The notes: a model not told the origin generated them from the sequence alone. 64,000 nucleotides of DNA from a bacterium (GCA_043756865.1 JAYUQG010000024.1:91259-155258), one strand, 5' to 3'; shown: positions 11,273 to 64,000, counted from the stretch's first letter. Program-made: numbers and translations.

Positions 11273-11400
11273 ATATAAACATGCGTGCTCCAGTCACACC
11301 AATGAGCACAGTGGATTTATAGCATATTCTGTCTCAAAATCAAACTTGGATGTCATTTGCATGCGGTTAGGAATTAATCACCAGTCCTAAGTTCACAGAC

Positions 11401-11424
11401 AGGACTCGGTCACGAGTTACTAAG
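11401..11424. repeat. 24-nt repeat related to the repeats next to tRNA-Gln (36153-36186 and 37301-37331, reverse complement)
   Basis: aggactcggtcacgagttactaag matches the reverse complement of cttagtgactcgtgaccgagtcc at 36153-36175 at 22 of 24 positions. Confidence 0.5.
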
Positions 11425-11550
11425 TCTTTTGGTGCGAAGGCCACCAAAAGCCCAAGTACTCCCGACCCCGACTCGCCCGTCTCACAAGGCTTCGACATGG
11501 CTCCGTCTTTCGATTCCTGATGAAAGTGCCATTGGGCGCTTTTTTGTAAT

Positions 11551-14962: not shown

Positions 14963-15047
14963 GGTAAATAGGATATGTGAGTACTATCGCGCCACGACTT
15001 ATAAAAAAGCGCCAGCACAATTTGCTGGCGAGTGTTGCTTCATTCTC

Positions 15048-15359
15048 TCACGAGACGCAAACGGGCGTCGCGGTGTGTTTTGCGTGGTACTCACTTGGGG
15101 GAAGTCCACCGATTTGCGCAAATGGCGTTTCGCCTGCGACGTATCCCCAAGAGCAGACGCCGCATGTGCATGAGCCACCTTTGTCAAAGTGGGCTGGGAG
15201 AGTGTCCTTGCATTGCGGGCAATGCGCTGTGATGACCTTCGAGGTGACCATGGCGTCCTTCCATTGATTGTTGCAACCCAAAATATACACTAAGTTATAC
15301 ATATTGTCAATGTTTTTGTTGGAGGGGTACATATTTACAAAGCTTAAATTATCTTGCAA
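15048..15359 (-). CDS. Small Cys-rich (zinc-ribbon-like) hypothetical protein
   Basis: 103 aa with HCPQCKD..CTCGVC. A hairpin plus T-run terminator lies on the minus strand just downstream (15003-15030). Confidence 0.4.
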   Translation of the reverse strand: MQDNLSFVNMYPSNKNIDNMYNLVYILGCNNQWKDAMVTSKVITAHCPQCKDTLPAHFDKGGSCTCGVCSWGYVAGETPFAQIGGLPPSEYHAKHTATPVCVS

Positions 15360-30150: not shown

Positions 30151-32034
30151 ATGACACAAGACACCGCACTTACAATTATGAAAACCGGGGCAAATATTTT
30201 CCTCACTGGTGAGCCGGGGTCTGGAAAAACACATACCGTGAACGCATATGTGCGGTACCTGAAGGAGCATGGTATTCAACCTTCCATCACTGCGTCGACG
30301 GGGATTGCCGCAACACATGTCGGAGGTATGACGATTCACTCATGGAGCGGTATTGGGATACGTCGCGCACTCTCCGAATATGACCTTGATGCAATGGCCT
30401 CGAACGAGGGGCTGGTCCGCCGACTCGCGAAAGCCAAAGTGCTTATCATCGACGAAATCTCGATGCTTGATGGCACGGTGCTCGACATGGTCGACCAAGT
30501 CTCGCGCACGATAAGGATGAAACAAGAACCCTTTGGCGGGCTACAGGTGATTTTGGTGGGTGACTTCTTTCAGCTCCCGCCGATTGCAAAGCAAGGCGAA
30601 CGTGCGCAGTTTGCGTTTGATTCAAAGGCGTGGAAACTCGCCAATCCAATTATTTGCTATCTTTCTGAACAGCATCGCCAAGAAGACACGGCGTTTCTCT
30701 CGACCTTGGGTGCGATACGTCGCGGGGAATTGGAGGACAGTGTCTTTGAGTATATTGGTGAGCGTAACGTGGCACCGGGTGAACACCCACTCGATATTCC
30801 CCAACTGTACACACACAATATCGACGTCGACAAAAAGAACACCATAGAACTAGAAAAGCTCACCAGCGCACCTGTGGTCTTTCTGATGGAAACAAAGGGG
30901 AGTACGGGGCGGGTAGAACAGTTGGTAAAAGGATGCCTCTCGCCAGAGGAATTGGTCTTGAAGGAAGGTGCGTCTGTCATGTTTACCAAGAACAGCTTTG
31001 ATTCAGGTTATGTAAATGGCACACTCGGTACGGTCATCGGGTTTGATGCTGACAACGGATTTCCTATCGTGGAAACACGTGATGGCGATGAGATAACGGC
31101 GTTTCCGTCGGAGTGGGCAGTGGACGATAGTGGCAAGGTCCTCGCGACCATCACGCAAGTGCCACTACGACTCGCATGGGCTATCACGGTGCACAAAAGC
31201 CAAGGACTCTCGCTGGACGCGGCGGTCATGGACCTCTCACGTGCGTTTGAGTACGGTCAGGGGTATGTCGCACTCTCACGTGTTCGTGAATTCGCTGGTC
31301 TGCATATTCTTGGTATCAACCAGCGCGCGTTTGAGGTACATCCACTCGTCCTTGAACGCGATCAAGCATTCCGCGAACGCTCCGACGATGCAGAGCGTGG
31401 TTTTGAAGACATGCCACCGTCTGATCTCCTGGCACTCCACAATAATTTTATTACTGCTATGGGGGGAACGATTCATGCCGTCGCGCTTGATGAAGCGACA
31501 AAAGCCCCGAAGATTTCTACATATGAACAAACACTCGCACTGGTCGCAGACGGAAAAACTCTTGCAGAGATTATCGCACTTCGCGGGATGACCGAGGGTA
31601 CAATTGTGAAACATCTCGAAGAGCTCGCGCTTTCGGGCAATCTTCCGCCCCTCGAGATGGCACAATTCACAGGACTCGAGCAGCGTGGGCTCGACGATAT
31701 ACGGGAAGCCATCCTCGGCGTAGAAGGAGGTTACTTAAAGCCTATTTATGAAGCGCTCGATGAAGCCTATTCTTATGAAATGATTCGACTTGTGCGCTTA
31801 GCCACAGGCGCTCTGGCAAAGCGTAAAGAAGAGAGCACAGAGCAAAAAGTCGCTCGTAAAGAACCAGCCACTGCGAAGCCAGACAATCTTGGTGCCAAAT
31901 GGTCAACGGAAGAGGAGTCACGTCTGAGAGAAATGTTTCAATCGGGAATGAAGACTGCGCACATCGCCCGCGAGCTCAAGCGTCAATCGGGAGGTATCCG
32001 TGCGCGACTCAAGAAGCTCGGGTTGCTTGAATAG
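30151..32034 (+). CDS. PIF1/RecD-family ATP-dependent helicase with a C-terminal HTH domain
   Basis: Walker A GEPGSGKTH, AAA_30-like core (LIIDEISMLDG), UvrD_C-like region and C-terminal HTH_40-like segment. Confidence 0.75.
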   Translation: MTQDTALTIMKTGANIFLTGEPGSGKTHTVNAYVRYLKEHGIQPSITASTGIAATHVGGMTIHSWSGIGIRRALSEYDLDAMASNEGLVRRLAKAKVLIIDEISMLDGTVLDMVDQVSRTIRMKQEPFGGLQVILVGDFFQLPPIAKQGERAQFAFDSKAWKLANPIICYLSEQHRQEDTAFLSTLGAIRRGELEDSVFEYIGERNVAPGEHPLDIPQLYTHNIDVDKKNTIELEKLTSAPVVFLMETKGSTGRVEQLVKGCLSPEELVLKEGASVMFTKNSFDSGYVNGTLGTVIGFDADNGFPIVETRDGDEITAFPSEWAVDDSGKVLATITQVPLRLAWAITVHKSQGLSLDAAVMDLSRAFEYGQGYVALSRVREFAGLHILGINQRAFEVHPLVLERDQAFRERSDDAERGFEDMPPSDLLALHNNFITAMGGTIHAVALDEATKAPKISTYEQTLALVADGKTLAEIIALRGMTEGTIVKHLEELALSGNLPPLEMAQFTGLEQRGLDDIREAILGVEGGYLKPIYEALDEAYSYEMIRLVRLATGALAKRKEESTEQKVARKEPATAKPDNLGAKWSTEEESRLREMFQSGMKTAHIARELKRQSGGIRARLKKLGLLE

Positions 32035-32043
32035 CTATCCCGA

Positions 32044-32158
32044 GTTATGCACACCCACCCCTTGCGTAATTCTACACAGGGTGTATATTTCATTCATCGA
32101 GACGATACGTCGTCTCAATTTAACAAAGCCTGTCACCCGACGGGCTTTTTTACGCCTC
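32044..32158 (+). repeat. Direct repeat R (~115 bp) holding a promoter-like element, an 18-nt hairpin and an intrinsic terminator; left copy
   Basis: About 95% identical to 33721-33837. ttgcgt, 16 nt, (tgt)atattt. Hairpin gagacgatacgtcgtctc. Terminator agcctgtcacccgacgggctttttt. Confidence 0.7.
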
Positions 32159-32178
32159 GATAAAGTATTAAGTATTTC

Positions 32179-32226
32179 AGCGCGAAGCGCAGAGATAGTG
32201 AGTCCTCGAGCGACAACGCCAAATAG
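32179..32226 (+). repeat. Direct repeat X (48 nt), left copy
   Basis: agcgcgaagcgcagagatagtgagtcctcgagcgacaacgccaaatag matches 33666-33712 at roughly 80%. Confidence 0.6.
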
Positions 32227-32262
32227 AAAGAAAAAACCGCCTTTTAGAGGCGGTCTGGTTTT

Positions 32263-33591
32263 TTAAGCTACTTCGTCGATTTTCTCAAGCGGGCGATCAT
32301 TGATTGCACGTTCAAGTGAACTCAAACGTTTGTAGATTGAGAGCATTTCGACAATAGTCGGCCAATTGAGGACCAAATATTGAAAAGAACTTTCTACTCT
32401 TCCGAATGCGCGCACAATCTGCTGCATGACTCCAAGGGTGAATCCTGCAAGTATCGCCTCTTTGGAAAGCAGGGTTGGTGCGAGTGCGATGTAGGGAACG
32501 AGTGCACCCGCCTGTAGATAGCTATACCGCACCATGTTGAAGTACATGTAGTGAAAGTACATCCGAAAGTAGTTTGTTCTCACGTGACCAAACAGCTCAC
32601 GCAATGTCTTCGGTTGTGCCCGAGTTTCGTCCTCTTCGCCGAATACTAGCTCCTTGCGGTAAGCGTGCTCCACTCGTTGGTTGTGGAATTTCAATGTCGG
32701 CAGATAATAACCCGTCAGTGCGAGCACAATCGTACCGAAAACAGACCAGCAGACTGCAATAATCACCAATCCATGGGCGATCGGTCCGATGACGGGTATC
32801 TCCGAGACAAACTTCGTCGAGAGCATCCAAAGAATCGGCAAGAACGCAATGAGCGTCATCACCGCATCAAGCAGTCCCGCACCCAATCCTTCCATGATGT
32901 CTGCAAAACGCATCGTGTCGTCTTGAATACGTTGGGACGCTCCTTCGATGTGACGGACTTTGCTCCATTTCCCAGTATAGTACTCGTTCATCGCGGTGCG
33001 CCACCGGAAGTTGTAGTGCTGGATGAAATAGTTTCCCAGCGTTCTCACAATCACAAACACCGCTGCAATGGTGAAAAAGGTGGCCAGACGTCCGTAGTAC
33101 TCAGTATTTTCGATAGTTCCGGGGTTCGCAAACATGGTTTGAATCATGTTGTAAAACCCACCGAACCATTCGTTAATCATGACATCGAGTTGCACCTGAA
33201 ACCACGTGAAAAAGATAATCACAGCGGAACCAAGAAGCGACCACTTCAGCCATTTGTGTGAACTACAGAAGTACCAGCAGGCAATAAATATTCCGTAGCA
33301 AGGGATGAGGAATTGGTATGCCCAAAAAGTCACCGCGCTTCCGAGCGCACTTATCTGGGATTGCACCAACTTTACTCGCTCGGGGTCTGTCTTTGCACCG
33401 AATCGCGCCGCTTCCTTTTGTAGCGTTTCGAGTAATCCGTAGTCGAGTTGAGCAAAGCCGAACCATTGACCAACGGAATACATTTGACCTGTTTGCTCTC
33501 CTAATGTGAACCAAAACACCAAGCAGGCAAGTGCCCATATCACAAATGAGCCAAAGAAGAGGAGCGGCCTCGGAAAGAAGGAATTAAACAT
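32263..33591 (-). CDS. sbmA: SbmA/BacA-family peptide (microcin/antimicrobial peptide) transporter
   Basis: 442 aa, collinear with enterobacterial SbmA along its whole length by eye: MF.SFFP, RWRTAMNEYY, HIEGA.QR.Q.DTMRFA, NQRVE.AYRKELV.GE.D.TRA, FHYMYFN, SIYKRL. Confidence 0.85.
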   Translation of the reverse strand: MFNSFFPRPLLFFGSFVIWALACLVFWFTLGEQTGQMYSVGQWFGFAQLDYGLLETLQKEAARFGAKTDPERVKLVQSQISALGSAVTFWAYQFLIPCYGIFIACWYFCSSHKWLKWSLLGSAVIIFFTWFQVQLDVMINEWFGGFYNMIQTMFANPGTIENTEYYGRLATFFTIAAVFVIVRTLGNYFIQHYNFRWRTAMNEYYTGKWSKVRHIEGASQRIQDDTMRFADIMEGLGAGLLDAVMTLIAFLPILWMLSTKFVSEIPVIGPIAHGLVIIAVCWSVFGTIVLALTGYYLPTLKFHNQRVEHAYRKELVFGEEDETRAQPKTLRELFGHVRTNYFRMYFHYMYFNMVRYSYLQAGALVPYIALAPTLLSKEAILAGFTLGVMQQIVRAFGRVESSFQYLVLNWPTIVEMLSIYKRLSSLERAINDRPLEKIDEVA

Positions 33592-33665
33592 TGGGGGACC
33601 CCTTTTGTGTCGAGAACTTTGTCTGTCAAAAGTCTAAAGGAAGGCGCAAATATAGCAACTGCATT

Positions 33666-33712
33666 AAGCGCGAAGCACCCGGATAGTGAGTCCGCGAGCG
33701 GTAACGTCAAAT
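33666..33712 (+). repeat. Direct repeat X', right copy
   Basis: agcgcgaagcacccggatagtgagtccgcgagcggtaacgtcaaatag. Confidence 0.6.
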
Positions 33713-33720
33713 AGCCCCCA

Positions 33721-33837
33721 AGTTATCCACACCCACCCCTTGCGTAATTCTACACAGGGTGTATATTTCATTCATCGAGACGATACGTCGTCTCAATTTA
33801 ACAAAGCCCGTCTCTGACGGGCTTTTTTACGTCTCCA
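33721..33837 (+). repeat. Direct repeat R', right copy (promoter-like element, hairpin, terminator)
   Basis: Near-identical to 32044-32158, including gagacgatacgtcgtctc and agcccgtctctgacgggcttttttacg. Confidence 0.7.
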
Positions 33838-33901
33838 CAACCGCCACAGCTTTTTCAAGAAAAAAACCGCCAACTGTTGATGGCGGTTTATTGTGTTTCT
33901 G

Positions 33902-34621
33902 CTATTTACGCAGTTTGCGAATGAGCGGTTTCACGAGTATGAGGGTGATGTTGAGTGCAATCAGGCAAAGCCACAATCCAAATAGGTATTTCATGGCTGT
34001 GAAAAACCAGTCATGTTCAGTCCAGATTTCTTTGAGCGTGAACACGAAGTAGTCTGGGTCATGCCACGCGAATGCGACGATTGCTGCCACAAAAAGTGAG
34101 GTGAGGATGATTTGCCCTCGTGGTTCCTCCACAAGCCACGCGCCGATGCGCTCGAGACGATTCGTGATTTTGCTCCACCCCTCCGCCGTTCGTACGGCGA
34201 TGGGTGTCCAGAATGCACGGAGTGCTTCGTGAATTGGATCCCATGCCATATGCCAAATCTTGGTGACCCAACTTGCGGTAGCATTCCACATGCGGGCAAG
34301 TCTGTCGCCGAGTCTCAGCACGCTCACGATGGCCACTATGGTGAGGGCGACCTGACCCAAGATTGCAAAGGGAAGTCCCACAATAAGGAGCGGAATACCC
34401 CACCATGCACCTGCAGAAATTCGTTCAACAAATGCACTGCCGAGCAGTAGCGCAAAAGAGAGAATCGCCACTCCCCATGCAGGTAAGAGTGGCATTTCAT
34501 GGCGGAGCCAAAATTTGAGCCCCACAAACAGGTGGAAGTAATAAGCAATTCCTGATTTCTCGGGAACTGATTCATGCCTTGCGAGGTACGGACGCTCAAA
34601 GAAAAACCGTGCAATGTTCAT
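33902..34621 (-). CDS. Hypothetical membrane protein
   Basis: 239 aa with several TM helices. No motif recognised. Confidence 0.5.
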   Translation of the reverse strand: MNIARFFFERPYLARHESVPEKSGIAYYFHLFVGLKFWLRHEMPLLPAWGVAILSFALLLGSAFVERISAGAWWGIPLLIVGLPFAILGQVALTIVAIVSVLRLGDRLARMWNATASWVTKIWHMAWDPIHEALRAFWTPIAVRTAEGWSKITNRLERIGAWLVEEPRGQIILTSLFVAAIVAFAWHDPDYFVFTLKEIWTEHDWFFTAMKYLFGLWLCLIALNITLILVKPLIRKLRK

Positions 34622-35848: not shown

Positions 35849-35918
35849 GGGGGTAATACCTTGAAAAATAGACGCATTTGGCTATACTGCGTAGGTTAGT
35901 TGGATTGATATAACATAT

Positions 35919-35989
35919 TGCGGGTTCGTCTAATGGTAGGACGTTACCCTCTGGAGGTAAATATTGGGGTTCGAGTCCCTGACCCGCAG
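35919..35989 (+). tRNA. tRNA-Gln (anticodon CTG)
   Basis: TGCGGGTTCGTCTAATGGTAGGACGTTACCCTCTGGAGGTAAATATTGGGGTTCGAGTCCCTGACCCGCAG. U1-A72 pair and anticodon loop CTCTGGA. Confidence 0.85.
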
Positions 35990-36057
35990 TTACCACACAA
36001 AAACACTCTGCCAAGAGTGTTTTTGTTTTGTGGTAACTCGCGGGTCAGGGACTCGAA
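35971..36057. repeat. 87-nt palindrome: tRNA-Gln 3' end, a 20-bp hairpin, and an inverted copy of the tRNA 3' end
   Basis: tcgagtccctgacccgcag..ttaccacacaaaaacactctgccaagagtgtttttgttttgtggtaa..ctcgcgggtcagggactcgaa. Confidence 0.7.
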
Positions 36058-36152
36058 ATGCGTAAGGTGGTATACAAGACGAGCGAAGCGAGTGCTTGTC
36101 ACCGAGCCGGGGTCGAGAGCACTTTGTAGTTCGGTGGCCTTGCGCCGAAATA

Positions 36153-36186
36153 CTTAGTGACTCGTGACCGAGTCCCTGACCCGCAG
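36153..36186 (+). repeat. att-like direct repeat of the tRNA-Gln 3' end (18 of 19 nt identical)
   Basis: cttagtgactcgtgaccgagtccctgacccgcag, compared with the tRNA 3' end tcgagtccctgacccgcag. Confidence 0.6.
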
Positions 36187-36221
36187 CAATGTCGCAACGT
36201 CACCCTTTTTGGGTGATTTTG

Positions 36222-44034: not shown

Positions 44035-44178
44035 TCTTGCTCGTTTATCAAAAAAACCGCTACTTGGCGTTGCCGCTCGAAGACTCACTTTTTTTGCGCG
44101 CTTTGCGCGGTAGATACAAAAAGCCATCACGTGGTTTTTTGGTAACACGGTCTCTATGTATTTTGCTAGAATACATTA

Positions 44179-44529
44179 ATGGAAAAACACCGTATCTACA
44201 CAATGAGCTTTGCTAGTGTTTATCCATTGTATGTCGCCAAGGCAGAGAAAAAGGGGCGTACGAAAAAAGAGGTGGATGAGGTCATCCGTTGGCTGACGAG
44301 GTACAGCCAGAAAGAATTGGGCACGCAACTGAAAAAACAAACAGACTTCGAGACGTTTTTTGGTGAGGCACCCGAAATGAATCCTGCGCGAGCATTAATT
44401 ACCGGTGTTATTTGTGGTGTGCGATTAGAAGATATTGAGGAAGCGCTTATGCGCGAAATCCGTTATCTGGATAAACTTATCGACGAGCTGGCTAAGGGGC
44501 GTACGATGGAGAGGATTTTGCGAAAGTAA
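44179..44529 (+). CDS. DUF2200 family protein
   Basis: [73 protein letters not shown] matches the DUF2200 pattern. Confidence 0.65.
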
Positions 44530-56884: not shown

Positions 56885-57175
56885 ATGCCAACAGCAAAAC
56901 CAGCAGCAAAAGCAAAACCAGCTGCAAAAGCAAATTCCGCGTTTATGAAACCGCTTGCAGTGAGCGAAGAACTCGCCGCAGTGGTCGGAACGGGCCCGCT
57001 GCCTCGCTCAGAAGTCGTCAAGAAACTCTGGGTGTATATCAAGAAGCATGATCTTCAGGATCCAAAAAACAAGCGCAATATCATCGCTGACGTCAATCTC
57101 CTCCCTGTATTTGGTGGAAAGGATGTGGTCAACATGTTTGAAATGACGAAACTCGTTTCAAAACATCTCTCATAA
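56885..57175 (+). CDS. SWIB/MDM2 domain protein
   Basis: N-terminus is a Lys/Ala-rich tail. ..LAVSEELAAVVGTGPLPRSEVVKKLWVYIKKHDLQDPKNKRNIIADVNLLPVFGG..MFEMTKLVSKHL matches the SWIB pattern. Confidence 0.75.
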   Translation: MPTAKPAAKAKPAAKANSAFMKPLAVSEELAAVVGTGPLPRSEVVKKLWVYIKKHDLQDPKNKRNIIADVNLLPVFGGKDVVNMFEMTKLVSKHLS

Positions 57176-57243
57176 TTGCCATCTTACGGTAATGCACAAA
57201 TTGCTCCAATTGGAGCGATTTTTGTTACGCCTCGTTGGCGCAG

Positions 57244-57777
57244 ATGTTGTGTTACCATGAATTTATGAAGGAAAAGGTGTTTATTGTTGACTATGCATCC
57301 GGATTTCTTCCTGAGATTTGTGCCCCAGACCACATCTCGGTTGCGCGCACTCAAGCTGCACTTCGTGCCTTCCACGCATACCCCAATGCGAAGATTGTGC
57401 TTGGGGCGGGCCTTCGTGAGCGCACTATGGGTTGCGGTCCGCTTGCAGAAATGATGCATACCGCTCTCACTCTGCAGGGGATACCCGAGGATGCTATTTT
57501 AGAGAACGCACTTGGGCACGATACACTTTCGGAAACCGAAGCTGCATATGCGGTCATCGTGAAACAGGGAGGGGGAACAATAGTCTGTGCAACCTCGCGC
57601 TATCACATGCGCCGCGTGTGGTGTTTGTGGTTTTTTCGTTTCGGAATTACTCCAAAAATGTTCCCCGCGGAGATTCGTCCCAGTAGTCAAGAGCAATTTC
57701 GCGAGTATTGCAAGCTCCCTGTTGATTGTCTACGTGCATTAATCCATCGATTCACCAATGAAACCTCAAGCCAATAA
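57244..57777 (+). CDS. YdcF/DUF218 family protein
   Basis: ..IVLGAGLRER..LTLQGIPEDAILENALGHDTLSETEAAYAVI..CATSRYHMRRV.. is DUF218-like. Confidence 0.5.
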   Translation: MLCYHEFMKEKVFIVDYASGFLPEICAPDHISVARTQAALRAFHAYPNAKIVLGAGLRERTMGCGPLAEMMHTALTLQGIPEDAILENALGHDTLSETEAAYAVIVKQGGGTIVCATSRYHMRRVWCLWFFRFGITPKMFPAEIRPSSQEQFREYCKLPVDCLRALIHRFTNETSSQ

Positions 57778-58093
57778 GATTACCTTTTCGGAGCGTGTTG
57801 TGCGGCTTGCGCGCGCGATACCTGCCGGCCGCGTGACTACGTACGGACGTATTTCTCGGGCTGCTGGTGGCGGAGGCATGGCGGCACAAAGCATTACAAC
57901 TATTCTTAGCAAAGCGTGGGATGTGGGTATTAAAGATATTCCCTTTCATCGTATTGTGTATGCGAATGGGAGAATTTGGGTTGACGAAGCGCATCGCGCG
58001 AAACGCATGCAGCTCTACAAAAAAGAAGGAATTCTTATCGACAATCGTGACCGTGTTGTGCATTTTAACGACATTCTTCTTGAGTATAAGTAG
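57758..58093 (+). CDS. Alkyltransferase-like (ATL) protein: MGMT DNA-binding domain with the active-site Cys replaced (PFHR instead of PCHR)
   Basis: ERVVRLARAIPAGRVTTYGRISRAAG..IPFHRIVYANGRI.. has the MGMT helix-turn-helix and Asn hinge pattern, but Phe sits where the alkyl-acceptor Cys would be. 111 aa. Confidence 0.65.
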   Translation: MKPQANKITFSERVVRLARAIPAGRVTTYGRISRAAGGGGMAAQSITTILSKAWDVGIKDIPFHRIVYANGRIWVDEAHRAKRMQLYKKEGILIDNRDRVVHFNDILLEYK

Positions 58094-58155
58094 CATGTTG
58101 CGAAACTGAGGTATCTGCCTATACTCATGAGAGATGTCAGTCACTGGAGTTTAAA

Positions 58156-58842
58156 ATGCAGTTTCGTCCTCAGACCATTCTGGCCTACGTGATGGTTGCC
58201 ATGGTTGCAATCTACTTATTCTTCCCTTCCACTTCACCTGAGATAGAAACGGTGGTGGTGCCGAGTCGCCCAGATACACAGACCTTGATGAATGAGTCAG
58301 TCATTCGCATCAAGGATTTCGAACTGACCGTCCGGCTTGCTGGAGGGCATGCAGAATTTCCCGCAGACCCAAACGAGCCTGATGGCGTGAAGGGTACAGT
58401 TGAGCTGCTCCCAATCGTCGCCAAGAAGGAGGTCATTGTCGGGGAGGGTGACCCACCGCGGAAGGCCACATATGTCTTTAGCGTCGCTGTGGTGAATGCA
58501 GGGGGGAGCGGAAGCTTCTCATATCTTCTGATGTACTACGATGACGGCAAATCGCTTGGCCACGTTGCCTCCGCCGGTCTTGGTGACCGCGTAGTTATCC
58601 AAGAACTGAAAGTGGGAGAGTTTCTGGATAGGGGAGGAGAAAACTTCCCTGTGATGGTCCGCATACTTGGGCGTGAAGAAGGTGGTGCAGGTGGAAGCCC
58701 TCCACAGGTTTCAAAAGTGCTCATCTTTCGAGTCAAAAAAGACTCAGAAACATTGACTCCTGAAGTTATGTCGCCACAGGTGGTTCCGTATGTTCCGGGT
58801 AATCCGACAATCCCACCGGCTCCACCGTTGGGCGGGGATTAA
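58156..58842 (+). CDS. Hypothetical secreted/membrane-anchored protein
   Basis: N-terminal TM helix, followed by a beta-rich domain and a Gly/Pro-rich C-terminus. Confidence 0.45.
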   Translation: MQFRPQTILAYVMVAMVAIYLFFPSTSPEIETVVVPSRPDTQTLMNESVIRIKDFELTVRLAGGHAEFPADPNEPDGVKGTVELLPIVAKKEVIVGEGDPPRKATYVFSVAVVNAGGSGSFSYLLMYYDDGKSLGHVASAGLGDRVVIQELKVGEFLDRGGENFPVMVRILGREEGGAGGSPPQVSKVLIFRVKKDSETLTPEVMSPQVVPYVPGNPTIPPAPPLGGD

Positions 58843-58877
58843 TCAAAACCGCGAAAGTATCGCGGTTTTTTTATATC

Positions 58878-59888
58878 TCAGAGAGTGTACGCGCCACCTT
58901 CAAAAATTATTTCGTCGTCGACAAGTACGCGGTCAACGACGGGGAAGAGGTCGACATGAAAGCGCGCTTTGTGTGTTACGATGCCCTCCTTTTTGTATAC
59001 GCTATGCTTTTCTCCAAGCGAAAGATGCTGCCCAAGAATTCGTTCAAACGCGGTAACGTCATCGATGTAGCGTTCGCGTGTAATGGCACGATTTAGTCCA
59101 AAGCCGATTTCGCGCACCAGGGGTCGCTCGTTTGCGGTGATGCTCGCAATAACTTCGGGAAATGATGCAGGGGCATTCTCCGCCCAGCCTATAACGACGC
59201 CTTCTTTCACATCTACGCGAAAGGGTTCGTGCATAGCAACTGAGAAGTCGCTTCCCGCATACGCATAGACGACGAAGGAGCCATTCATTTGTGCAAAGTC
59301 GCGACTTTCAGTAAATACTTCTCCGATAGGGAATGTGCCGCCGATGTTCTCCATACCCGCATAGTCACCAAGATTTGGTTTCGGGGTTTCAAGCCCCCCT
59401 GTCACCACAAGTGCATGTGTGCCCGCTTCGATGCGCAGCACTTTGCAGTTGGCCAGCTTTGTTTGGAGCTTCGGTCCGATGACTCGGTACCACGATGGGT
59501 CATAGGCAAGCGCGTTGATATACACATCCCACACCTCTTCTTTGTTGCGATAGAGATGGGTGTGCTCGATAACCTTTAGCTTGAGTTTAAAGAGATGCAG
59601 ACGTATGCGAAAGTCATCCAGTCGGAAACTCGAGGTTTGGATAAGCACAACAAGGTCGCGCGGACTGAGTCCGTCGAATGCGGCAATCACTTCCTCCTTT
59701 GTCACCGTATCGAAGTCGATAAACTGTGCGTGAGGTAGCACGGTGCGATATGCAGCAGTCAGAATGTCTGTAAGACCATTTTGGGTGTCATAGACGACAA
59801 GTGCCCGCTCGGGGCTCTTGTGTTCGAGTGCAAGGGTGACCATGTCGCCGATATTCTTTGTTGCGAGCTGGAGCAGTTCCGCGTTCAT
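58878..59888 (-). CDS. Aminopeptidase, possibly M29 (AmpS/PepS-like) family
   Basis: 336 aa. Segments ..VREIGFGLNRAI.. and ..GTHALVV..EVFTE.. resemble M29 aminopeptidases. Tentative. Confidence 0.35.
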   Translation of the reverse strand: MNAELLQLATKNIGDMVTLALEHKSPERALVVYDTQNGLTDILTAAYRTVLPHAQFIDFDTVTKEEVIAAFDGLSPRDLVVLIQTSSFRLDDFRIRLHLFKLKLKVIEHTHLYRNKEEVWDVYINALAYDPSWYRVIGPKLQTKLANCKVLRIEAGTHALVVTGGLETPKPNLGDYAGMENIGGTFPIGEVFTESRDFAQMNGSFVVYAYAGSDFSVAMHEPFRVDVKEGVVIGWAENAPASFPEVIASITANERPLVREIGFGLNRAITRERYIDDVTAFERILGQHLSLGEKHSVYKKEGIVTHKARFHVDLFPVVDRVLVDDEIIFEGGAYTL

Positions 59889-60065
59889 ACCAAGAGCCTA
59901 TCGTAAATATATTGAAATACCAAATTTATTTTGTTCAACAAAAAACCCGACATTGGCGTGGATGTATCACGGTTTCCCTGAGGAGTGATCTGGGAACTGC
60001 TGTTCAGCTATAACACACTTGCTTGACTGGCACACACATTCATGTTATTTTAAAACCAGTAACAC

Positions 60066-60656
60066 ATGACAACACTTCCCGATTTATCGATAGGAACACA
60101 AATGAGTTTTGAACAAATGGTGACTGCAGTACGCGAACTTGGTGACAATGGCGCCTATATCGGCCGGCTTTGCCCTCCGCATTTGGGGCACCTCTATCTC
60201 GCCGACCTCCTGCTTCAGGCGTTTCCCAGCACGCACATGATTGGGGTCGGAAGTTGCAACGAGAAGGTTTCGTTCAAGCACCTCTTCAACTACGGTGATA
60301 AGCGCGATGTGTTGCGCCTCGTATATCCACAAGCGACGATTCTCCCAGTTCCCGACTTCGGCAACGATGCGCTCTGGTTTTCCGCCATCGATGACCAGTT
60401 GAGTGCAATGGGAAGAAATCCCAAGGACACCGTCTTCATCGGCGGGTGCGAAGAAGAAGTTGAGTTCTACTACAAGGCTGGGCGAAAGGTCTTCATCGTG
60501 AATCGCTTCGGGGGGCTCACCACCAAGGTGAGCGGCACTGAAGTACGCGACGCACTCATCGAAGGGAGACCACTTGATGGAATGCTCCATCCAAGCACAA
60601 TTCCACTTGTGAAAGAACGTTTCGTGTTGCGCTGGGAAGAATTGCGCAGCAAATAG
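60066..60656 (+). CDS. Nicotinamide-nucleotide adenylyltransferase-like cytidylyltransferase (NadM-type HxGH)
   Basis: GRLCPPHLGHLYLADLL is the (H/T)xGH nucleotidyltransferase motif. About 190 aa. Confidence 0.55.
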   Translation: MTTLPDLSIGTQMSFEQMVTAVRELGDNGAYIGRLCPPHLGHLYLADLLLQAFPSTHMIGVGSCNEKVSFKHLFNYGDKRDVLRLVYPQATILPVPDFGNDALWFSAIDDQLSAMGRNPKDTVFIGGCEEEVEFYYKAGRKVFIVNRFGGLTTKVSGTEVRDALIEGRPLDGMLHPSTIPLVKERFVLRWEELRSK

Positions 60657-60700
60657 CAAACAGACAGCACCCGCATGATGCGGGTGTTTTTTTGTGTACA
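60657..60700. terminator. Bidirectional terminator between convergent genes
   Basis: cagcacccgcatgatgcgggtgtttttttgtg. Confidence 0.7.
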
Positions 60701-60720
60701 AAATAACACGCCTTGGCGTG

Positions 60721-61365
60721 TTATGTAATTACGATGCGCAGATTTTTTCCCGTTCTCTGTGCATGCCCGACTACTTTCTCACCGATATATATCATCGTGT
60801 CCGCAAGTGTGGAACAAACAAAAAACGCACTTGCGATATATTCTTGAAACATGAAGAGCGTTGCAGTTTCGATGCGGGAGTACTGCCTGTGCAGATACAT
60901 GTGGTACAGGGAGAGTCGGTGGGGAAGCCAGCCTGGCGCAATCCTCCGTTCTGCCAAGAGGTCAATTTCGAATTGCATCGATTCCCCCGTGTCTTCGCAC
61001 GGACGCGATATTGCCTCTTTCGGAAGCGTAATCGTGAGTGCCGTCGCAGGAGAGTGGGCGAATGACTTCAGCACAGTTTCAAATGCGGTATGGTGACATA
61101 GAGTTCCGGTGTGCCCGACAATCGTAAGTTCGGTGCAATCGGCAAGGATTTGTCGCGTAAAGTCCTCGTGCATTTCACCAAGTGACGAACGTTGGTGCTG
61201 CAGGGTGTCGCTTTTGCGTAAGTACGTGAACGCCTCGGCTCGGTTGAGAATGACGAAGATGTCTCGTTCGTCATACTGTGTAACGTGAGCGATAATTGCA
61301 GCTCGCGTGAGGTGCATTGTGTCGTAGCGGGTTTGCGGATGCACCACGAGAAGTTTCTTTCCCAT
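60721..61365 (-). CDS. Isochorismatase-family cysteine hydrolase (possible nicotinamidase PncA-like)
   Basis: KKLLVVHPQTRYD.. and ..LTIVGHTGTLCHHTAFE carry the isochorismatase-like nucleophile Cys. Convergent with the NMNAT-like gene. Confidence 0.45.
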   Translation of the reverse strand: MGKKLLVVHPQTRYDTMHLTRAAIIAHVTQYDERDIFVILNRAEAFTYLRKSDTLQHQRSSLGEMHEDFTRQILADCTELTIVGHTGTLCHHTAFETVLKSFAHSPATALTITLPKEAISRPCEDTGESMQFEIDLLAERRIAPGWLPHRLSLYHMYLHRQYSRIETATLFMFQEYIASAFFVCSTLADTMIYIGEKVVGHAQRTGKNLRIVIT

Positions 61366-61479
61366 AGTCCTCTCTTAACAAGTCTGTCATCAGAAAACAC
61401 CCACAGTGCTACTTTTGCAAGTTTGCGCGAAGCACACAATAAAAAAGCCCCCTAGGGGGCTTTGTGTACAAAAGTAGAT

Positions 61480-62733
61480 TCAGTCTTTCCCGACTTCGCG
61501 AAGCATCGGTGCTTCGGCTGGGCCAGTCGGGGTGGGGGTGCCACCACGGCGAGAGACAACTTCGTCTTCGATTCTGTTCTTGGCTTCGATATTGTCGTAG
61601 ATGTAGCCGAAACGCTTCAGGAAGGCGTTGAAGACATCATGCAGGATGCGCAACGTGATGATCTTGCGGATTGCGCGCAGGCCCATGCTGAAAGGCCAGA
61701 AGAAGACCCACAGGAACAGTTGCCCCTTGTGTTCGTTCTTCGTCGTGGGGCTACGCTTCGTTGCCTTGCCGATGATGTAGTCGCTGAACTCGGGAACGAG
61801 GACGGTTTTCTCGGGCGTCGAACGACCAAGTTGCTGCGACCAGTACTTCAGGTCTTCGTCGGTGAAGGGGGCGTCTTCGGCTCCCTCTGCTTTCGTGAAC
61901 GCAGCCCTGAGTCTGTTTTCTTCGTCAGAGATGGCTTTCAGACCATACTGCACATCTTGCGAGTTGAAACTGCCCATCGAGACAGCCTTGGTGGGCAAGG
62001 GGTCATCTTTCGACAGTCCCGTACCCTTGCGGAAGTCCGTGCGCAGCTTGACCAGTGCGTCCATGCTCTCCTTGAGTTGGAGCGCCAGTTGCGTCTTGGT
62101 CTCGGTGAAGAGTTCGTGCAGGAAGGCACTGAAGTCTTTCCAGCGGTACACGCTCCAGCCGATGCCGATGGCCACCCAGATGGCGATTGCAGGCGCTGCC
62201 TTCCATGACATCAGCGTTTCCCAGATGGGAAGACCACCGTAGTTCAGGAATGCGAGCATGCCGACGAAAATCAGGGTTGTGGCGAACTCGTGCGTGTCGA
62301 TGCGCTCGCGCTGTCCGCGCTTGCTTTCACGCCAGAACCACCCGATACGCGAGTCGGAATATTCCGACAAGATACCGATTGCAGCCATGGGAATGAAGAG
62401 CACGAGGGCAAACGCGAGCCAGCCGATGGTGCCCATGCCGACCAAGAGCCAGCCACCCGCAAAGAGTGCGCCGAATGCAGCGGTGACACCAACGAACAGG
62501 CCTTTGAGAAAGCCGGTGTTTTCAGATTGCGCTGTGGTTGTTTCCGCGGCGACGCGGACGACGGTTTCAGGTGCGCGGGAGGGTGTGGACTGCGCAGCAG
62601 TACCCGATGGTGTTTGCGCATTTGCCACGACGGTAGCCGTTGCAACAGTACTTGCTGTCGTCGCGTCAGCGGGCGGTTTGAAGACAAACCATCCTGCTAT
62701 CGCAAGAACTATTACGAAAAACAAAGTCTTCAT
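61480..62733 (-). CDS. Hypothetical membrane protein (GC-rich gene)
   Basis: 417 aa. N-terminal signal/TM, then an Ala/Thr-rich tract, several TM helices and a soluble C-terminus. The overlapping + strand ORFs are read as GC-rich artefacts. Confidence 0.55.
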   Translation of the reverse strand: MKTLFFVIVLAIAGWFVFKPPADATTASTVATATVVANAQTPSGTAAQSTPSRAPETVVRVAAETTTAQSENTGFLKGLFVGVTAAFGALFAGGWLLVGMGTIGWLAFALVLFIPMAAIGILSEYSDSRIGWFWRESKRGQRERIDTHEFATTLIFVGMLAFLNYGGLPIWETLMSWKAAPAIAIWVAIGIGWSVYRWKDFSAFLHELFTETKTQLALQLKESMDALVKLRTDFRKGTGLSKDDPLPTKAVSMGSFNSQDVQYGLKAISDEENRLRAAFTKAEGAEDAPFTDEDLKYWSQQLGRSTPEKTVLVPEFSDYIIGKATKRSPTTKNEHKGQLFLWVFFWPFSMGLRAIRKIITLRILHDVFNAFLKRFGYIYDNIEAKNRIEDEVVSRRGGTPTPTGPAEAPMLREVGKD

Positions 62734-62883
62734 GTCTCAATCTCTCTTTCTCACTGTGTTGTAAAGAAGGGCCTCCGTAATAACTACTACGTTTTATAAA
62801 ATTGTCAAGCGTCTCTGTTGGGAGCATGTGTTTAATTTTTCAAAATCACTTATAATAGAGTAAATCACTTAACCTCATCTACT

Positions 62884-63090
62884 ATGAATAAAACAACCCT
62901 TATTGGGATACTGCTATTTATCGCACTTTTGCTTGTCGGGGCATTAGGGTTTCTTTTGTTTGGCTCGTCGGGCAGCGACGAGGCTCGCGCGTGTACCGAA
63001 GAAGCAAAACTTTGCCCAGATGGAAGTGCTGTTGGCAGGACTGGCCCCAATTGTGCATTCGCTGTATGTCCCGAAGTCTCAAAGCTGTAG
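62884..63090 (+). CDS. Small secreted Cys-containing peptide
   Basis: 68 aa. Signal-anchor LIGILLFIALLLVGALGFLLFG. Four Cys in the mature part. Confidence 0.4.
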   Translation: MNKTTLIGILLFIALLLVGALGFLLFGSSGSDEARACTEEAKLCPDGSAVGRTGPNCAFAVCPEVSKL

Positions 63091-63190
63091 GTTTTTGACA
63101 TTGCAGATGGTACGGAAATCAAGTGGAGATTTGACGGAGTACTGCCCACACTTATACTGCACTTAGTTGGTACAACATCTTGGAGGTCGA

Positions 63191-63961
63191 ATGACCGAAG
63201 CTATAAATGTGCGCATTCCCGACCTTATCACTCCGAAAACGGATGAAGACTTCTTTGCAATTGGCAGGTTGCTCTTGCCACGCTCGACGTGCTTGAAGAC
63301 TCAAACTGCTGCGCTTATCGTGCAGGACGGTGTCATCGTCTCGTACGGGTACAACATGTGCTGTCCGCAGGGGCAACTTTACGGCATGCCCGTAGCGCAC
63401 TGTCCTCGTGTGGACACGAAGACGGGTACCGCATATGCACTTTGCAAGCCGATTCATGCTGAGGTGGTTGCAGTCTTAAACGCATTTGGTATTAGCCACG
63501 CAGAACGCACATCGCTCTGGCATTTCCCTGGGCATCTGGTGAAGCTTTTTCAGTACAAAGACTACTTCAGGGGTAAGGCGACGTTATACTTGCTCGGTCA
63601 CTACTGGGCGTGCGAGGAGTGTGTTGCCTTTCTCAAGCTCATTGGAATAACGGAAATAAAGTTTGATGACCTCTCTGGCAATGCAACGCTCTCGACATAT
63701 GCCAGAGCAGGGCTGACTGGTACCGAAAGCGGCTGTGTCACTTCGGGGACGCTGCTTATGGGTGTGGTATCCGTTACGCTCACACCTACGGCAAGCGAAA
63801 GCGAACTCTGCGCACGCCTCGGCCTCACCACAGGGCTCTGTCTACCTAAAGAAACAGGTGTTGCACTCCTGCGGGTTCCTGCCGGGACAGAGTTTGAGTG
63901 GGCGAAGCTCCTCGCAACCGATGCTTCCGTCATTGAAGCAAACTTGATTTATCGGCACTGA
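63191..63961 (+). CDS. Cytidine/deoxycytidylate deaminase family protein with a C-terminal extension
   Basis: RBS ggagg before the ATG at 63191. CDA zinc motifs PIHAEVVAVLNA (HAE) and YWACEECVAFL (CxxC). Confidence 0.6.
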   Translation: MTEAINVRIPDLITPKTDEDFFAIGRLLLPRSTCLKTQTAALIVQDGVIVSYGYNMCCPQGQLYGMPVAHCPRVDTKTGTAYALCKPIHAEVVAVLNAFGISHAERTSLWHFPGHLVKLFQYKDYFRGKATLYLLGHYWACEECVAFLKLIGITEIKFDDLSGNATLSTYARAGLTGTESGCVTSGTLLMGVVSVTLTPTASESELCARLGLTTGLCLPKETGVALLRVPAGTEFEWAKLLATDASVIEANLIYRH

Positions 63962-64000
63962 CGCTACCGGCACAACACTGTGCCGGTTTTGCTTTGCAAA

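What the first reader, a model, noticed from the sequence alone, without database searches (positions are those of the whole stretch)
32063..32158. Each R repeat encodes a self-contained promoter, hairpin and terminator unit: a candidate sRNA of about 60 nt
Inside R sits a -35-like ttgcgt, a 16-nt spacer, then tgtatattt (extended -10). About 10 nt downstream is a perfect 7-bp hairpin, gagacgatacgtcgtctc. Next comes an intrinsic terminator, agcctgtcacccgacgggctttttt. No ATG-initiated ORF lies inside the unit. The unit occurs twice (32063-32158 and 33740-33837). Its orientation allows it to act as a bidirectional terminator between the convergent helicase and sbmA genes.
Basis: inference. Interest (0 to 1): 0.5.

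Follow-up and report, generated by a model that had tools for sequence, protein, structure and literature searches.

The report
Small RNA mini-gene family, candidate-phylum bacterium
The repeat is real and is most likely a small family of about 55-nt non-coding RNA genes, each with its own promoter, a 5' hairpin and a terminator, in an uncultivated Lloydbacteria-like (candidate phyla radiation) bacterium; nothing shows that the RNA is made, and its role is unknown.

Summary
R1 (32039-32163) and R2 (33717-33840) are about 96% identical direct repeats on the + strand that flank sbmA.

An independent Logan assembly confirms both junctions. A third copy, R3, lies about 4.3 kb beyond the window end on Logan contig L092. 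It is about 65% identical to R1.

R3 keeps the whole architecture:
- a TTG -35, an exact 16-nt spacer and a TAnATT -10;
- an A at the predicted start;
- a 7-bp hairpin with a UNCG loop, two of whose pairs changed on both sides and one to U.G;
- an 11-nt A/U-rich linker;
- a terminator with one flipped pair.

Both wobble pairs form only on the + strand. An RNA structure on the + strand is therefore under selection.

The promoter is moderately supported. The motif arises in 1.2% of shuffles of R1. The 13 other intergenic instances in the window all sit just upstream of a gene or tRNA.

The "extended -10" is not canonical, and the bidirectional-terminator role is weak.

No homologue exists in Rfam, in related genomes or in metagenomes. 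Relatives have intergenic gaps of only 41-43 nt at the same sites. Expression and function are untested.

This is a new, lineage-restricted member of a known kind. Confidence in an autonomous sRNA gene is about 0.55.

The parts
32039..32163 (+). R1, the complete repeat unit. It starts 5 nt after the stop codon of the PIF1-type helicase gene.
   Evidence: 96-97% identical to R2. nhmmer and the covariance model score it at E about 1e-23 or lower.
32062..32089 (+). R1 promoter-like element TTGCGT-16 nt-TATATT. The predicted start is A32096.
   Evidence: The key positions and the spacer length are conserved in R3. Activity is inferred, not shown.
32099..32116 (+). R1 5' hairpin: 7 bp with a UACG (UNCG-type) loop, 3 nt after the predicted start.
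   Evidence: -9.9 kcal/mol. Covariation with R3 is shown.
32117..32127 (+). R1 single-stranded A/U-rich linker AAUUUAACAAA (11 nt).
   Evidence: The length is conserved in R3, but only 6 of 11 bases are identical.
32128..32151 (+). R1 intrinsic terminator: 7-bp stem with one U.G pair, ACCC loop, U6. It also ends the helicase mRNA.
   Evidence: -14.7 kcal/mol on +, -11.2 on -.
33717..33840 (+). R2, the complete repeat unit. It lies upstream of sbmA and points away from it. No co-oriented gene lies upstream of it.
33740..33767 (+). R2 promoter-like element, identical to that of R1. The predicted start is A33774.
33777..33794 (+). R2 5' hairpin, identical to that of R1.
33806..33828 (+). R2 intrinsic terminator: perfect 7-bp stem, UCU loop, U6.
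   Evidence: -15.6 kcal/mol.
32263..33591 (-). sbmA/bacA-family transporter gene enclosed by R1 and R2. This is context and not part of the unit.
   Evidence: Pfam PF05992, E = 3.5e-131. Its position next to the helicase is conserved in relatives.
32234..32256 (-). sbmA's own terminator (Ta), homologous to the single shared terminator in relatives.
32176..32226 (+). D2a, a copy of a second, unrelated 51-nt intergenic repeat next to R1.
33664..33714 (+). D2b, the copy of the same 51-nt repeat next to R2. A third copy lies at 44056-44115 in the other orientation.

Best explanation
R is a mini-gene for a small non-coding RNA, present in at least three copies in this Lloydbacteria-like (Patescibacteria) genome.

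Proposed mechanism:
1. A sigma-70-type promoter (TTGCGT, 16 nt, TATATT) starts transcription at an A 7 nt after the -10 (32096 in R1, 33774 in R2).
2. The RNA begins 3 nt before a 7-bp hairpin capped by a UNCG tetraloop.
3. It continues through an 11-nt A/U-rich single strand.
4. It ends at a strong intrinsic terminator, giving a transcript of 55-56 nt.

R1 and R3 lie directly after the stop codon of a co-oriented gene. The same terminator therefore also ends that mRNA, and the RNA could also be released from the mRNA 3' end. This is the layout of sRNAs such as DapZ or MicL, which have their own promoter near the stop codon of the upstream gene (PMC9438474).

Shown:
- the repeat family;
- the two-hairpin fold;
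- selection on that fold on the + strand;
- conservation of the promoter positions.

Inferred:
- that the promoter fires;
- that the RNA accumulates;
- that it acts as a regulator, with the 5' hairpin as a stabiliser and the linker or the terminator/U-tail as the interaction surface.

The near-identity of R1 and R2 reflects a recent duplication or gene conversion. A side effect is that the two copies can recombine to delete or amplify sbmA.
For: - **Family.** R1 and R2 are confirmed. R3 was found by nhmmer at E = 5e-7 with the two-copy profile. It lies on contig L092, which is 100% identical to window 57127-64000 and belongs to the same NCBI contig.
- **Structure under selection.** Of 42 pair cells in three sequences, 97.6% are paired and 3 pairs changed on both sides. 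Versions with the 3' partners slid by 1-3 columns give 24-50% paired and no double changes. Five substitutions in the 14 stem positions of hairpin 1 keep all 7 pairs, which has p about 0.005 by simulation.
- **Strand.** Both wobble pairs (R1 terminator, R3 hairpin 1) are U.G on the + strand and would be A.C on the - strand. The minus-strand folds are correspondingly worse. The clean U5-6 tract is on the + strand.
- **Promoter motif is rare.** The pattern TTGnnn, 16-18 nt, TAnnnT (at least 5 of 6 matches to TATAAT) occurs 23 times in the window. The 13 other intergenic cases all sit 0-58 nt upstream of a gene or tRNA start, many of them leaderless, and 8 lie inside genes. R1 and R2 are the only orphans. 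The motif arises in 1.2% of dinucleotide-preserving shuffles of R1 on the + strand.
- **Promoter is conserved in R3.** R3 keeps TTG, the exact 16-nt spacing, GGTG, TA..TT and an A at +1. The first 12 spacer bases are only 3/12 identical, and the sequence upstream of -35 is unrelated.
- **R2 context.** R2 has no co-oriented upstream gene, so its + strand terminator only makes sense with its own promoter.
- **Pattern of differences.** The differences between R1 and R2 avoid an 81-nt core. They fall at the edges of the repeat, in one stem position of the terminator and in its loop.
- **Not coding.** There is no conserved ORF. A 1-nt loop indel shifts the frame between the copies.
Against: - No expression data of any kind are available.
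- The promoter is mediocre: -35 matches 3 of 6 positions and there is no correctly spaced TG. The tool's consensus scan did not call it. On a generic position-weight matrix, about 110 sites in the window score as well.
- An equally scoring promoter-like site exists on the minus strand.
- The motif criterion used for the census was chosen after seeing R.
- Covariation rests on effectively two independent sequences. 20 of 500 shuffles reach the observed values.
- R1 and R3 could be nothing more than 3' UTRs.
- The family is absent from every relative and every collection searched, so there is no deep conservation.
- The linker, the presumed seed, is only 6/11 conserved, and no target stands out in the window.
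Confidence: 0.55

Rival explanations
1. R is a cis-acting 3'-end module with no promoter of its own. The hairpin plus terminator ends and stabilises the helicase mRNA (R1) and the ABC-transporter mRNA (R3). R2 is a recent, functionless or merely insulating duplicate. The promoter-like hexamers are coincidental.
For: - R1 and R3 both start just after the stop codon of a co-oriented gene.
- The terminator is strong on the + strand.
- The promoter match is only 8 of 12 and was not called by the scan.
- About 110 sites score as well on a generic matrix.
- R2 is 96% identical to R1, so it may be too young for selection to have acted on it.
Against: - In R3, conservation starts at the -35, not at the hairpin. 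It keeps TTG, the 16-nt spacing, TA..TT and the A at +1 while the spacer diverges.
- The motif is rare in shuffles (p = 0.012).
- Elsewhere in intergenic DNA the motif is always at a gene start.
- Relatives end the same genes with one simple terminator in a 41-43-nt gap, so no elaborate 3' module is needed.
Confidence: 0.25
2. R is a small selfish or mobile intergenic repeat, in the style of MITE, REP or mobile promoter-terminator cassettes. It spreads into gaps behind genes. Its hairpins are kept for its own propagation or are tolerated because they terminate transcription.
For: - All three copies are insertions relative to the nearest relatives, whose gaps are 41-43 nt.
- At least three copies lie in about 68 kb.
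- R is adjacent to a second repeat family, D2, in either order.
- There is an analogy to the PeSL promoter/stem-loop cassettes of T4-type phages, which flank genes and recombine (PMC2839356).
Against: - No terminal inverted repeats, target-site duplications or shared target sequence are visible.
- No transposase lies nearby.
- The hairpin sequences differ between R1 and R3. That argues against recognition by one trans-acting enzyme and for selection on RNA pairing.
- The genome-wide copy number could not be measured.
- This rival does not exclude the best explanation: a mobile cassette could still encode an RNA.
Confidence: 0.12
3. R is a DNA-level protein-binding element: a palindromic operator, a DnaA box (TTATCCACA) or a dif-like recombination site that regulates sbmA or replication.
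For: - Hairpin 1 is a perfect 7-4-7 palindrome placed just downstream of a promoter-like site.
- R2 carries TTATCCACA and R1 carries TTATGCACA.
Against: - The palindrome sequence is not conserved in R3 (GAGACGA versus AAGGTGA); only the pairing is kept, including a U.G pair.
- The DnaA-box-like and C-rich part is absent from R3.
- TTATNCACA occurs 6 times in the window against 2.3 expected, which is unremarkable.
- Cumulative GC skew shows no origin in the window.
Confidence: 0.03
4. R encodes a small protein, or a type I toxin-antitoxin pair.
For: The minus strand carries a 20-22-codon ATG ORF (MNEIYTLCRITQGVGV...), read directly.
Against: - The ORF has no ribosome-binding site and no leaderless promoter.
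- The peptide is not hydrophobic.
- The ends of the ORF differ between R1 and R2.
- The + strand frames are shifted by the loop indel and run through the terminators.
Confidence: 0.02

Closest known systems
Bacterial sRNA genes with their own promoter at the 3' end of a protein gene, sharing that gene's terminator (DapZ, MicL, MicX type; PMC9438474)
   Same: In R1 and R3 the promoter lies next to the stop codon of a co-oriented gene. The transcript is short and structured, and the mRNA and the sRNA share one intrinsic terminator.
   Different: - The promoter lies after the stop codon, not inside the coding sequence.
- There is no sequence homology.
- No Hfq or ProQ partner is known in this phylum.
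- No conserved seed or target was found.
- Expression is unproven.
- One copy (R2) stands alone, with no parent gene.
Multicopy sRNA paralogue families (for example Qrr1-5, PrrF1/2, OmrA/B, LhrC1-5; recalled from general knowledge)
   Same: Several copies per genome share one architecture: promoter, stem-loop, single-stranded stretch, Rho-independent terminator. Some copies are near-identical and some have diverged.
   Different: In those families the seed sequence is the best conserved part. Here the structure and the promoter positions are conserved while the linker is only 6/11 identical. R matches none of the 4227 Rfam families.
PeSL promoter/stem-loop regulatory cassettes of T4-type phages (PMC2839356, PMC4122927)
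   Same: These are short repeated cassettes that combine a sigma-70-like promoter with a terminator stem-loop. They flank single genes in direct orientation, so recombination between them can excise or shuffle the gene.
   Different: - R is in a bacterial chromosome, not a phage.
- The enclosed sbmA is ancestral and syntenic, not a shuffled ORFan.
- R places the promoter upstream of two hairpins, so it defines a transcript of its own.
- No mini-circle or shuffling evidence exists.
Small intergenic repeat elements with hairpins (REP/BIME, ERIC, Correia elements; recalled from general knowledge)
   Same: They are short, structured and confined to intergenic DNA, and they can carry promoter or terminator activity. 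They are absent from orthologous sites in relatives.
   Different: R has no terminal inverted repeats or target duplications. Only three copies have been seen so far. Pairing is maintained by compensatory change rather than by sequence identity.
Ordinary (bidirectional) intrinsic terminators between convergent genes
   Same: A GC-rich stem is flanked by an A-tract and a T-tract between the helicase gene and sbmA.
   Different: Relatives manage with a single hairpin in a 41-nt gap. R adds a promoter-like element and a second conserved hairpin, and it works poorly on the minus strand in R1.

Membership tests
Any described RNA family (Rfam 15) | Covariance-model match at or above the family's gathering score | tested here: not met
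   Only tRNAs pass in the window. In 31900-34000 only chance-level sub-threshold hits overlap the terminators.
Intrinsic (Rho-independent) terminator | GC-rich stem of 5 bp or more, short loop, followed directly by a U-tract | tested here: met
   7-bp stems, loops of 3-4 nt, U5-6. Energies are -14.7 and -15.6 kcal/mol with 0 of 200 shuffles as stable. R3 has the same layout. For unknown reasons the tool's terminator scan did not list it.
Sigma-70-type promoter | -35 and -10 hexamers at 16-18 nt spacing, with A at position 2 and T at position 6 of the -10 | tested here: inconclusive
   TTGCGT-16-TATATT matches 8 of 12 positions. It was not called by the consensus scan. It is rare in shuffles (1.2%) and conserved in position in R3. 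The same pattern elsewhere in intergenic DNA always precedes a gene.
   The sequence is GTG directly followed by TATATT, so the TG is one position off.
Independent trans-encoded sRNA gene | A primary transcript with a defined 5' end and a discrete size | not testable with these tools
   No transcriptome data are accessible. The organism is known only from metagenomes.
Independent trans-encoded sRNA gene | Conserved secondary structure supported by covariation on the transcribed strand | tested here: met
   3 pairs changed on both sides and 2 wobble changes occur only on the + strand; 97.6% of cells are paired. Simulation gives p about 0.005 for hairpin 1. Only three sequences are available.
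Independent trans-encoded sRNA gene | No conserved protein-coding potential | tested here: met
   There is no + strand ATG in the unit. A loop indel shifts the frame. The minus-strand 20-22-codon ORF is not conserved at its ends.
Independent trans-encoded sRNA gene | Conserved seed and identifiable target | tested here: not met
   The linker is 6/11 identical between R1 and R3. Duplex and k-mer searches in the window are no better than shuffles. Targets elsewhere in the genome could not be searched.
MITE / REP-type mobile repeat | Terminal inverted repeats and/or target-site duplication | tested here: not met
   None is seen at the ends of the three copies.
MITE / REP-type mobile repeat | Many dispersed copies per genome | not testable with these tools
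   Only about 69 kb of this genome could be read, and it holds 3 copies. The exact-match scans found no copy in the public genome, metagenome or viral collections.
PeSL-type promoter/terminator cassette | Repeated promoter plus terminator stem-loop units that flank variable genes and mediate their shuffling | tested here: inconclusive
   The units do flank one gene in direct orientation. That gene is ancestral at this site, and no recombinant form could be looked for.
Type I toxin-antitoxin repeat (Sib/Ibs, Ldr type) | Small hydrophobic toxin ORF opposite the sRNA | tested here: not met
   The only opposite-strand ORF is hydrophilic. It has no ribosome-binding site, and its ends differ between the copies (sequence).

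The most novel reading that the evidence does not exclude
R is the first sRNA gene family in Patescibacteria to be defined from promoter to terminator. It is also a proliferating promoter-terminator cassette: it has inserted behind several genes of a streamlined genome, where it sets the 3' ends of mRNAs. As the direct repeats R1 and R2, it makes the peptide-uptake gene sbmA excisable or amplifiable, a bacterial counterpart of phage PeSL cassettes.
Probability: 0.2. Interest if true: 0.65.

Novelty: new member of a known kind. Interest (0 to 1): 0.45.

Why it matters
My two literature searches for small RNAs in candidate-phyla-radiation bacteria returned nothing on this group. These organisms have tiny, compact genomes and mostly cannot be cultured.

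This locus offers a concrete, testable candidate. It is a structured RNA of about 55 nt with covariation support, a mapped putative promoter and copy-specific SNPs, so metatranscriptome reads can be assigned to individual copies.

The locus also shows that a streamlined genome tolerates or recruits 125-nt insertions at gene ends. The window further reveals a clear promoter grammar, with many leaderless genes, that can guide annotation of related genomes.

If the RNA is not expressed, the finding reduces to an unusual duplicated terminator module.

Tried and rejected
- **Rfam.** The gathering-threshold and permissive searches found nothing.
- **Exact-pattern scans.** Two genome-contig scans were available; one was used on an R 22-mer (no hit) and one on the helicase. 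Two metagenome scans and two viral scans with R segments found nothing.
- **BLAST against phages and plasmids.** No match, in near or distant mode.
- **Orthologous sites.** The orthologous sites in 90 related loci show no R by BLAST, nhmmer or covariance model. Weak model hits, such as the one downstream of the L014 helicase, were inspected and are not homologous.
- **sbmA as an inserted cassette.** Rejected, because helicase-sbmA synteny is ancestral.
- **Collinear duplication of the whole intergenic region.** Rejected, because similarity stops about 8 nt after the T-tract.
- **DnaA box, dif site or palindromic operator.** Rejected after R3 was found.
- **Coding potential, including a leaderless start.** Rejected, because the base triplet at the predicted start is ATC, not ATG.
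- **Target prediction within the window.** Not better than shuffles.
- **Reading more of the genome.** Edge proteins gave only 4.35 kb more on the right and 1.1 kb more on the left. The 184-kb NCBI contig itself was not retrievable.
- **Orthologue of the gene next to R3.** Its 3' gap is compact at 43 nt and holds no R.

Full report
**Observation**

The window holds two direct copies of a repeat of about 125 nt on the + strand: R1 at 32039-32163 and R2 at 33717-33840. They are 96-97% identical. The 29-nt promoter segment occurs exactly twice, against 0 expected.

The copies enclose the sbmA/bacA-family gene at 32263-33591 on the minus strand (Pfam PF05992, E = 3.5e-131). R1 begins 5 nt after the stop codon of a PIF1-type helicase gene at 30151-32034 on the + strand.

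- a 16-nt spacer
- TATATT at 32084-32089
- the perfect 7-bp hairpin at 32099-32116
- an 11-nt A/U-rich linker
- the terminator at 32128-32151

The predicted 55-56-nt RNAs fold into exactly these two hairpins. The energies are -24.6 and -25.5 kcal/mol, z = -5.8 and -6.4.

An independent Logan assembly contig (L001) runs at 100% identity from inside R1, across sbmA, into R2. It breaks where 31-mers stop being copy-specific, so the duplication is not an assembly artefact.

**Organism and context**

The helicase is 73-74% identical to helicases of Candidatus Lloydbacteria MAGs (Parcubacteria, Patescibacteria group). CTP synthase is 87% identical to that of a Parcubacteria MAG. The window therefore comes from an uncultivated candidate-phyla-radiation bacterium.

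The convergent helicase-sbmA arrangement is ancestral. It is found in L006-L011 and in the Lloydbacteria locus L012. In L012 the gap between the two genes is only about 41 nt and holds a single hairpin. That hairpin is homologous to sbmA's own terminator in the window (32234-32256).

R1 and the neighbouring 51-nt repeat D2a are therefore lineage-specific insertions. The same holds for R2 and D2b upstream of sbmA, beyond the conserved sbmA promoter TGCTATATT.

**Search for relatives**

- Rfam gives nothing.
- Exact scans of the genome, metagenome and viral collections give nothing.
- BLAST against phages and plasmids gives nothing.
- BLAST, nhmmer and covariance-model searches of about 90 related loci give nothing.

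**A third copy**

A Logan contig of the same organism, L092, is 100% identical to window 57127-64000 and extends 4.35 kb beyond the window end. It belongs to the same NCBI contig.

nhmmer with the R1/R2 profile found a third, diverged copy at its very end: R3, at L092 1-96 on the minus strand of the locus. This is the + strand in window orientation, at a window-equivalent position of about 68258-68353 (E = 5e-7). R3 starts about 40 nt after the stop codon of a co-oriented ABC_tran_2 gene. In the closest relative of that gene, the corresponding gap is 43 nt and holds no R.

**What R3 shows**

The alignment keeps the whole architecture at about 65% identity:

| Element | R1 | R3 |
|---|---|---|
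| -35 | TTGCGT | TTGCAA |
| Spacer | 16 nt | exactly 16 nt (first 12 bases only 3/12 identical, last four GGTG identical) |
| -10 | TATATT | TAAATT |
| Base 7 nt after the -10 | A | A |
| Hairpin 1 | GAGACGA-UACG-UCGUCUC | AAGGUGA-UUCG-UCGCCUU |
| Linker | 11 nt, A/U-rich | 11 nt, A/U-rich (6/11 identical) |
| Terminator | GCCUGUC-ACCC-GACGGGC + U6 | GCCCCU-CCCA-AGGGGC + U5 |

Counting pairs on the three sequences gives these results:
- 97.6% of cells are paired.
- Three pairs changed on both sides (G-C to A-U, A-U to G-C, G-C to C-G).
- Two pairs changed to wobble.
- Versions with the 3' partners slid by 1-3 columns give 24-50% paired and no double changes.

A simulation shows that five random substitutions in the 14 stem positions of hairpin 1 keep all seven pairs in only 0.5% of trials.

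Both wobble pairs are U.G on the + strand and would be A.C on the minus strand. The minus-strand folds are correspondingly worse. Both loops of hairpin 1 are of the UNCG type.

The conclusion is that an RNA structure on the + strand is under selection. A DNA palindrome or operator is excluded, because the sequence of the arms is not conserved. The DnaA-box-like and C-rich 5' part of R1 and R2 is absent from R3, so it is not part of the functional core.

**Is the promoter real?**

On a generic sigma-70 matrix the site scores 9.6 bits. About 110 sites in the window do as well. The tool's consensus scan did not call it, and an equally scoring site exists on the minus strand.

This genome, however, has a clear promoter grammar. 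Many genes are leaderless, with a TAnnnT hexamer ending 6-8 nt before the ATG, often as TGnTATAAT, and spacers of 16 nt are common.

I counted sites with TTGnnn, a spacer of 16-18 nt and TAnnnT matching TATAAT in at least 5 of 6 positions. The window has 23:
- 13 intergenic sites, each 0-58 nt upstream of a gene or tRNA start
- 8 sites inside genes
- 2 sites in R1 and R2, the only intergenic ones with no gene behind them

Dinucleotide-preserving shuffles of R1 produce such a motif on the + strand in 1.2% of cases.

Together with the conservation of the key positions, the spacer length and the start base in R3, I regard the promoter as probable but unproven. The criterion was chosen after seeing R, so these numbers are somewhat optimistic.

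**Other points**

- The differences between R1 and R2 avoid an 81-nt core, 32050-32130, which covers the promoter through the linker. They fall at the edges of the repeat, at one stem position (U.G versus C-G) and in the terminator loop. This fits constraint or recent gene conversion.
- R2 has no co-oriented gene upstream, so a + strand terminator there has nothing to terminate except a transcript from its own promoter.
- The bidirectional-terminator idea is weak. sbmA has its own strong terminator, and on the minus strand the R1 hairpin has a mismatch and a poor U-tract (-11.2 kcal/mol, z = -1.8).
- No coding potential is conserved.
- No target stands out within the window.

**Interpretation**

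The best explanation (confidence about 0.55) is a small family of autonomous sRNA mini-genes. Two of them are appended to the 3' ends of protein genes and share their terminators. This layout is known from DapZ- and MicL-type sRNAs (PMC9438474). The 5' hairpin would act as a stabiliser. The function of the RNA is unknown.

Rivals:
- A promoter-less 3'-end module, with R2 as a neutral duplicate (0.25).
- A selfish or mobile promoter-terminator cassette comparable to phage PeSLs (0.12; PMC2839356). This does not exclude the best explanation.
- A DNA-binding site (0.03).
- A small protein or type I toxin-antitoxin pair (0.02).

A consequence of the R1/R2 arrangement, whatever its function, is that homologous recombination could delete or amplify sbmA.

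**Novelty and verdict**

R is a new, lineage-restricted family of a known kind. It is interesting mainly because my two literature searches found nothing on RNA regulators in this group of bacteria, and because the candidate is directly testable in metatranscriptomes using the copy-specific loop sequences. Interest is 0.45.

Noticed in passing
window-wide, e.g. gene starts 5114, 11749, 14270, 28191, 42710, 44179, 44578, 45483, 47061, 49951, 51262, 52515: Many genes appear to be leaderless. A TAnnnT -10 hexamer, often TGnTATAAT, ends 6-8 nt before the ATG, frequently with a TTG -35 at 16-nt spacing. This gives a usable promoter grammar for this candidate-phylum genome.
   Followed up: partly
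32176-32226 (+), 33664-33714 (+), 44056-44115 (opposite orientation): A second intergenic repeat family, D2, of about 51 nt (nhmmer E = 1e-14 to 1e-16). On the other strand its conserved block reads TTGrCG-16 nt-CACTnT, followed by a GCGC..GCGC hairpin. Two of the three copies point towards a downstream gene (sbmA and the gene at 44179). It sits next to R twice, but in opposite order.
   Followed up: partly
35918-36190 and 11400-11470: The 3' end of tRNA-Gln (cgagtccctgacccgcag) recurs inverted at about 36033-36057 and direct at about 36170-36187. The DNA between them shares a segment of about 40 nt (ggtggccttgcgccgaaatacttagtgactcgtgaccgagtcc) with the spacer between two tRNA-Met genes at 11402-11445. 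No Rfam match. It could be an integration scar or a tRNA-linked structured element.
   Followed up: no
32069-32097 and 33747-33775, minus strand: R also carries a promoter-like site on the minus strand, ATGAAT-17-TAGAAT, which scores the same on the generic matrix. In R2 it would point towards sbmA. A 20-22-codon ATG ORF lies on the same strand.
   Followed up: partly
15000-15330, minus strand: A near-consensus promoter (TTGACA-17-TATATT) lies upstream of a small, apparently Cys/His-rich ORF that ends at a clean terminator. It sits in a 470-nt gap that a length-based ORF list would mis-annotate.
   Followed up: no
30151-32034 (+): The PIF1-type helicase carries a C-terminal extension of about 70 residues after its HTH_40 domain. 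Lloydbacteria homologues share the extension (625-627 aa). The 559-aa homologues in L006-L011 lack it.
   Followed up: no
L002-L005 versus L006-L012: The SbmA proteins closest in sequence (81-82% identity) include some in a different gene neighbourhood with no helicase. More distant ones (74-75%) keep the helicase-sbmA-TfoX synteny. This hints at exchange or relocation of sbmA among these bacteria.
   Followed up: no
57180-57235 (+): The terminator after the gene at 56885-57175 is followed by TTACGCCTCG, the same 10 bases that follow the R1 T-tract. The Logan contig L092 also ends close by, at window position 57127. This is probably chance.
   Followed up: no
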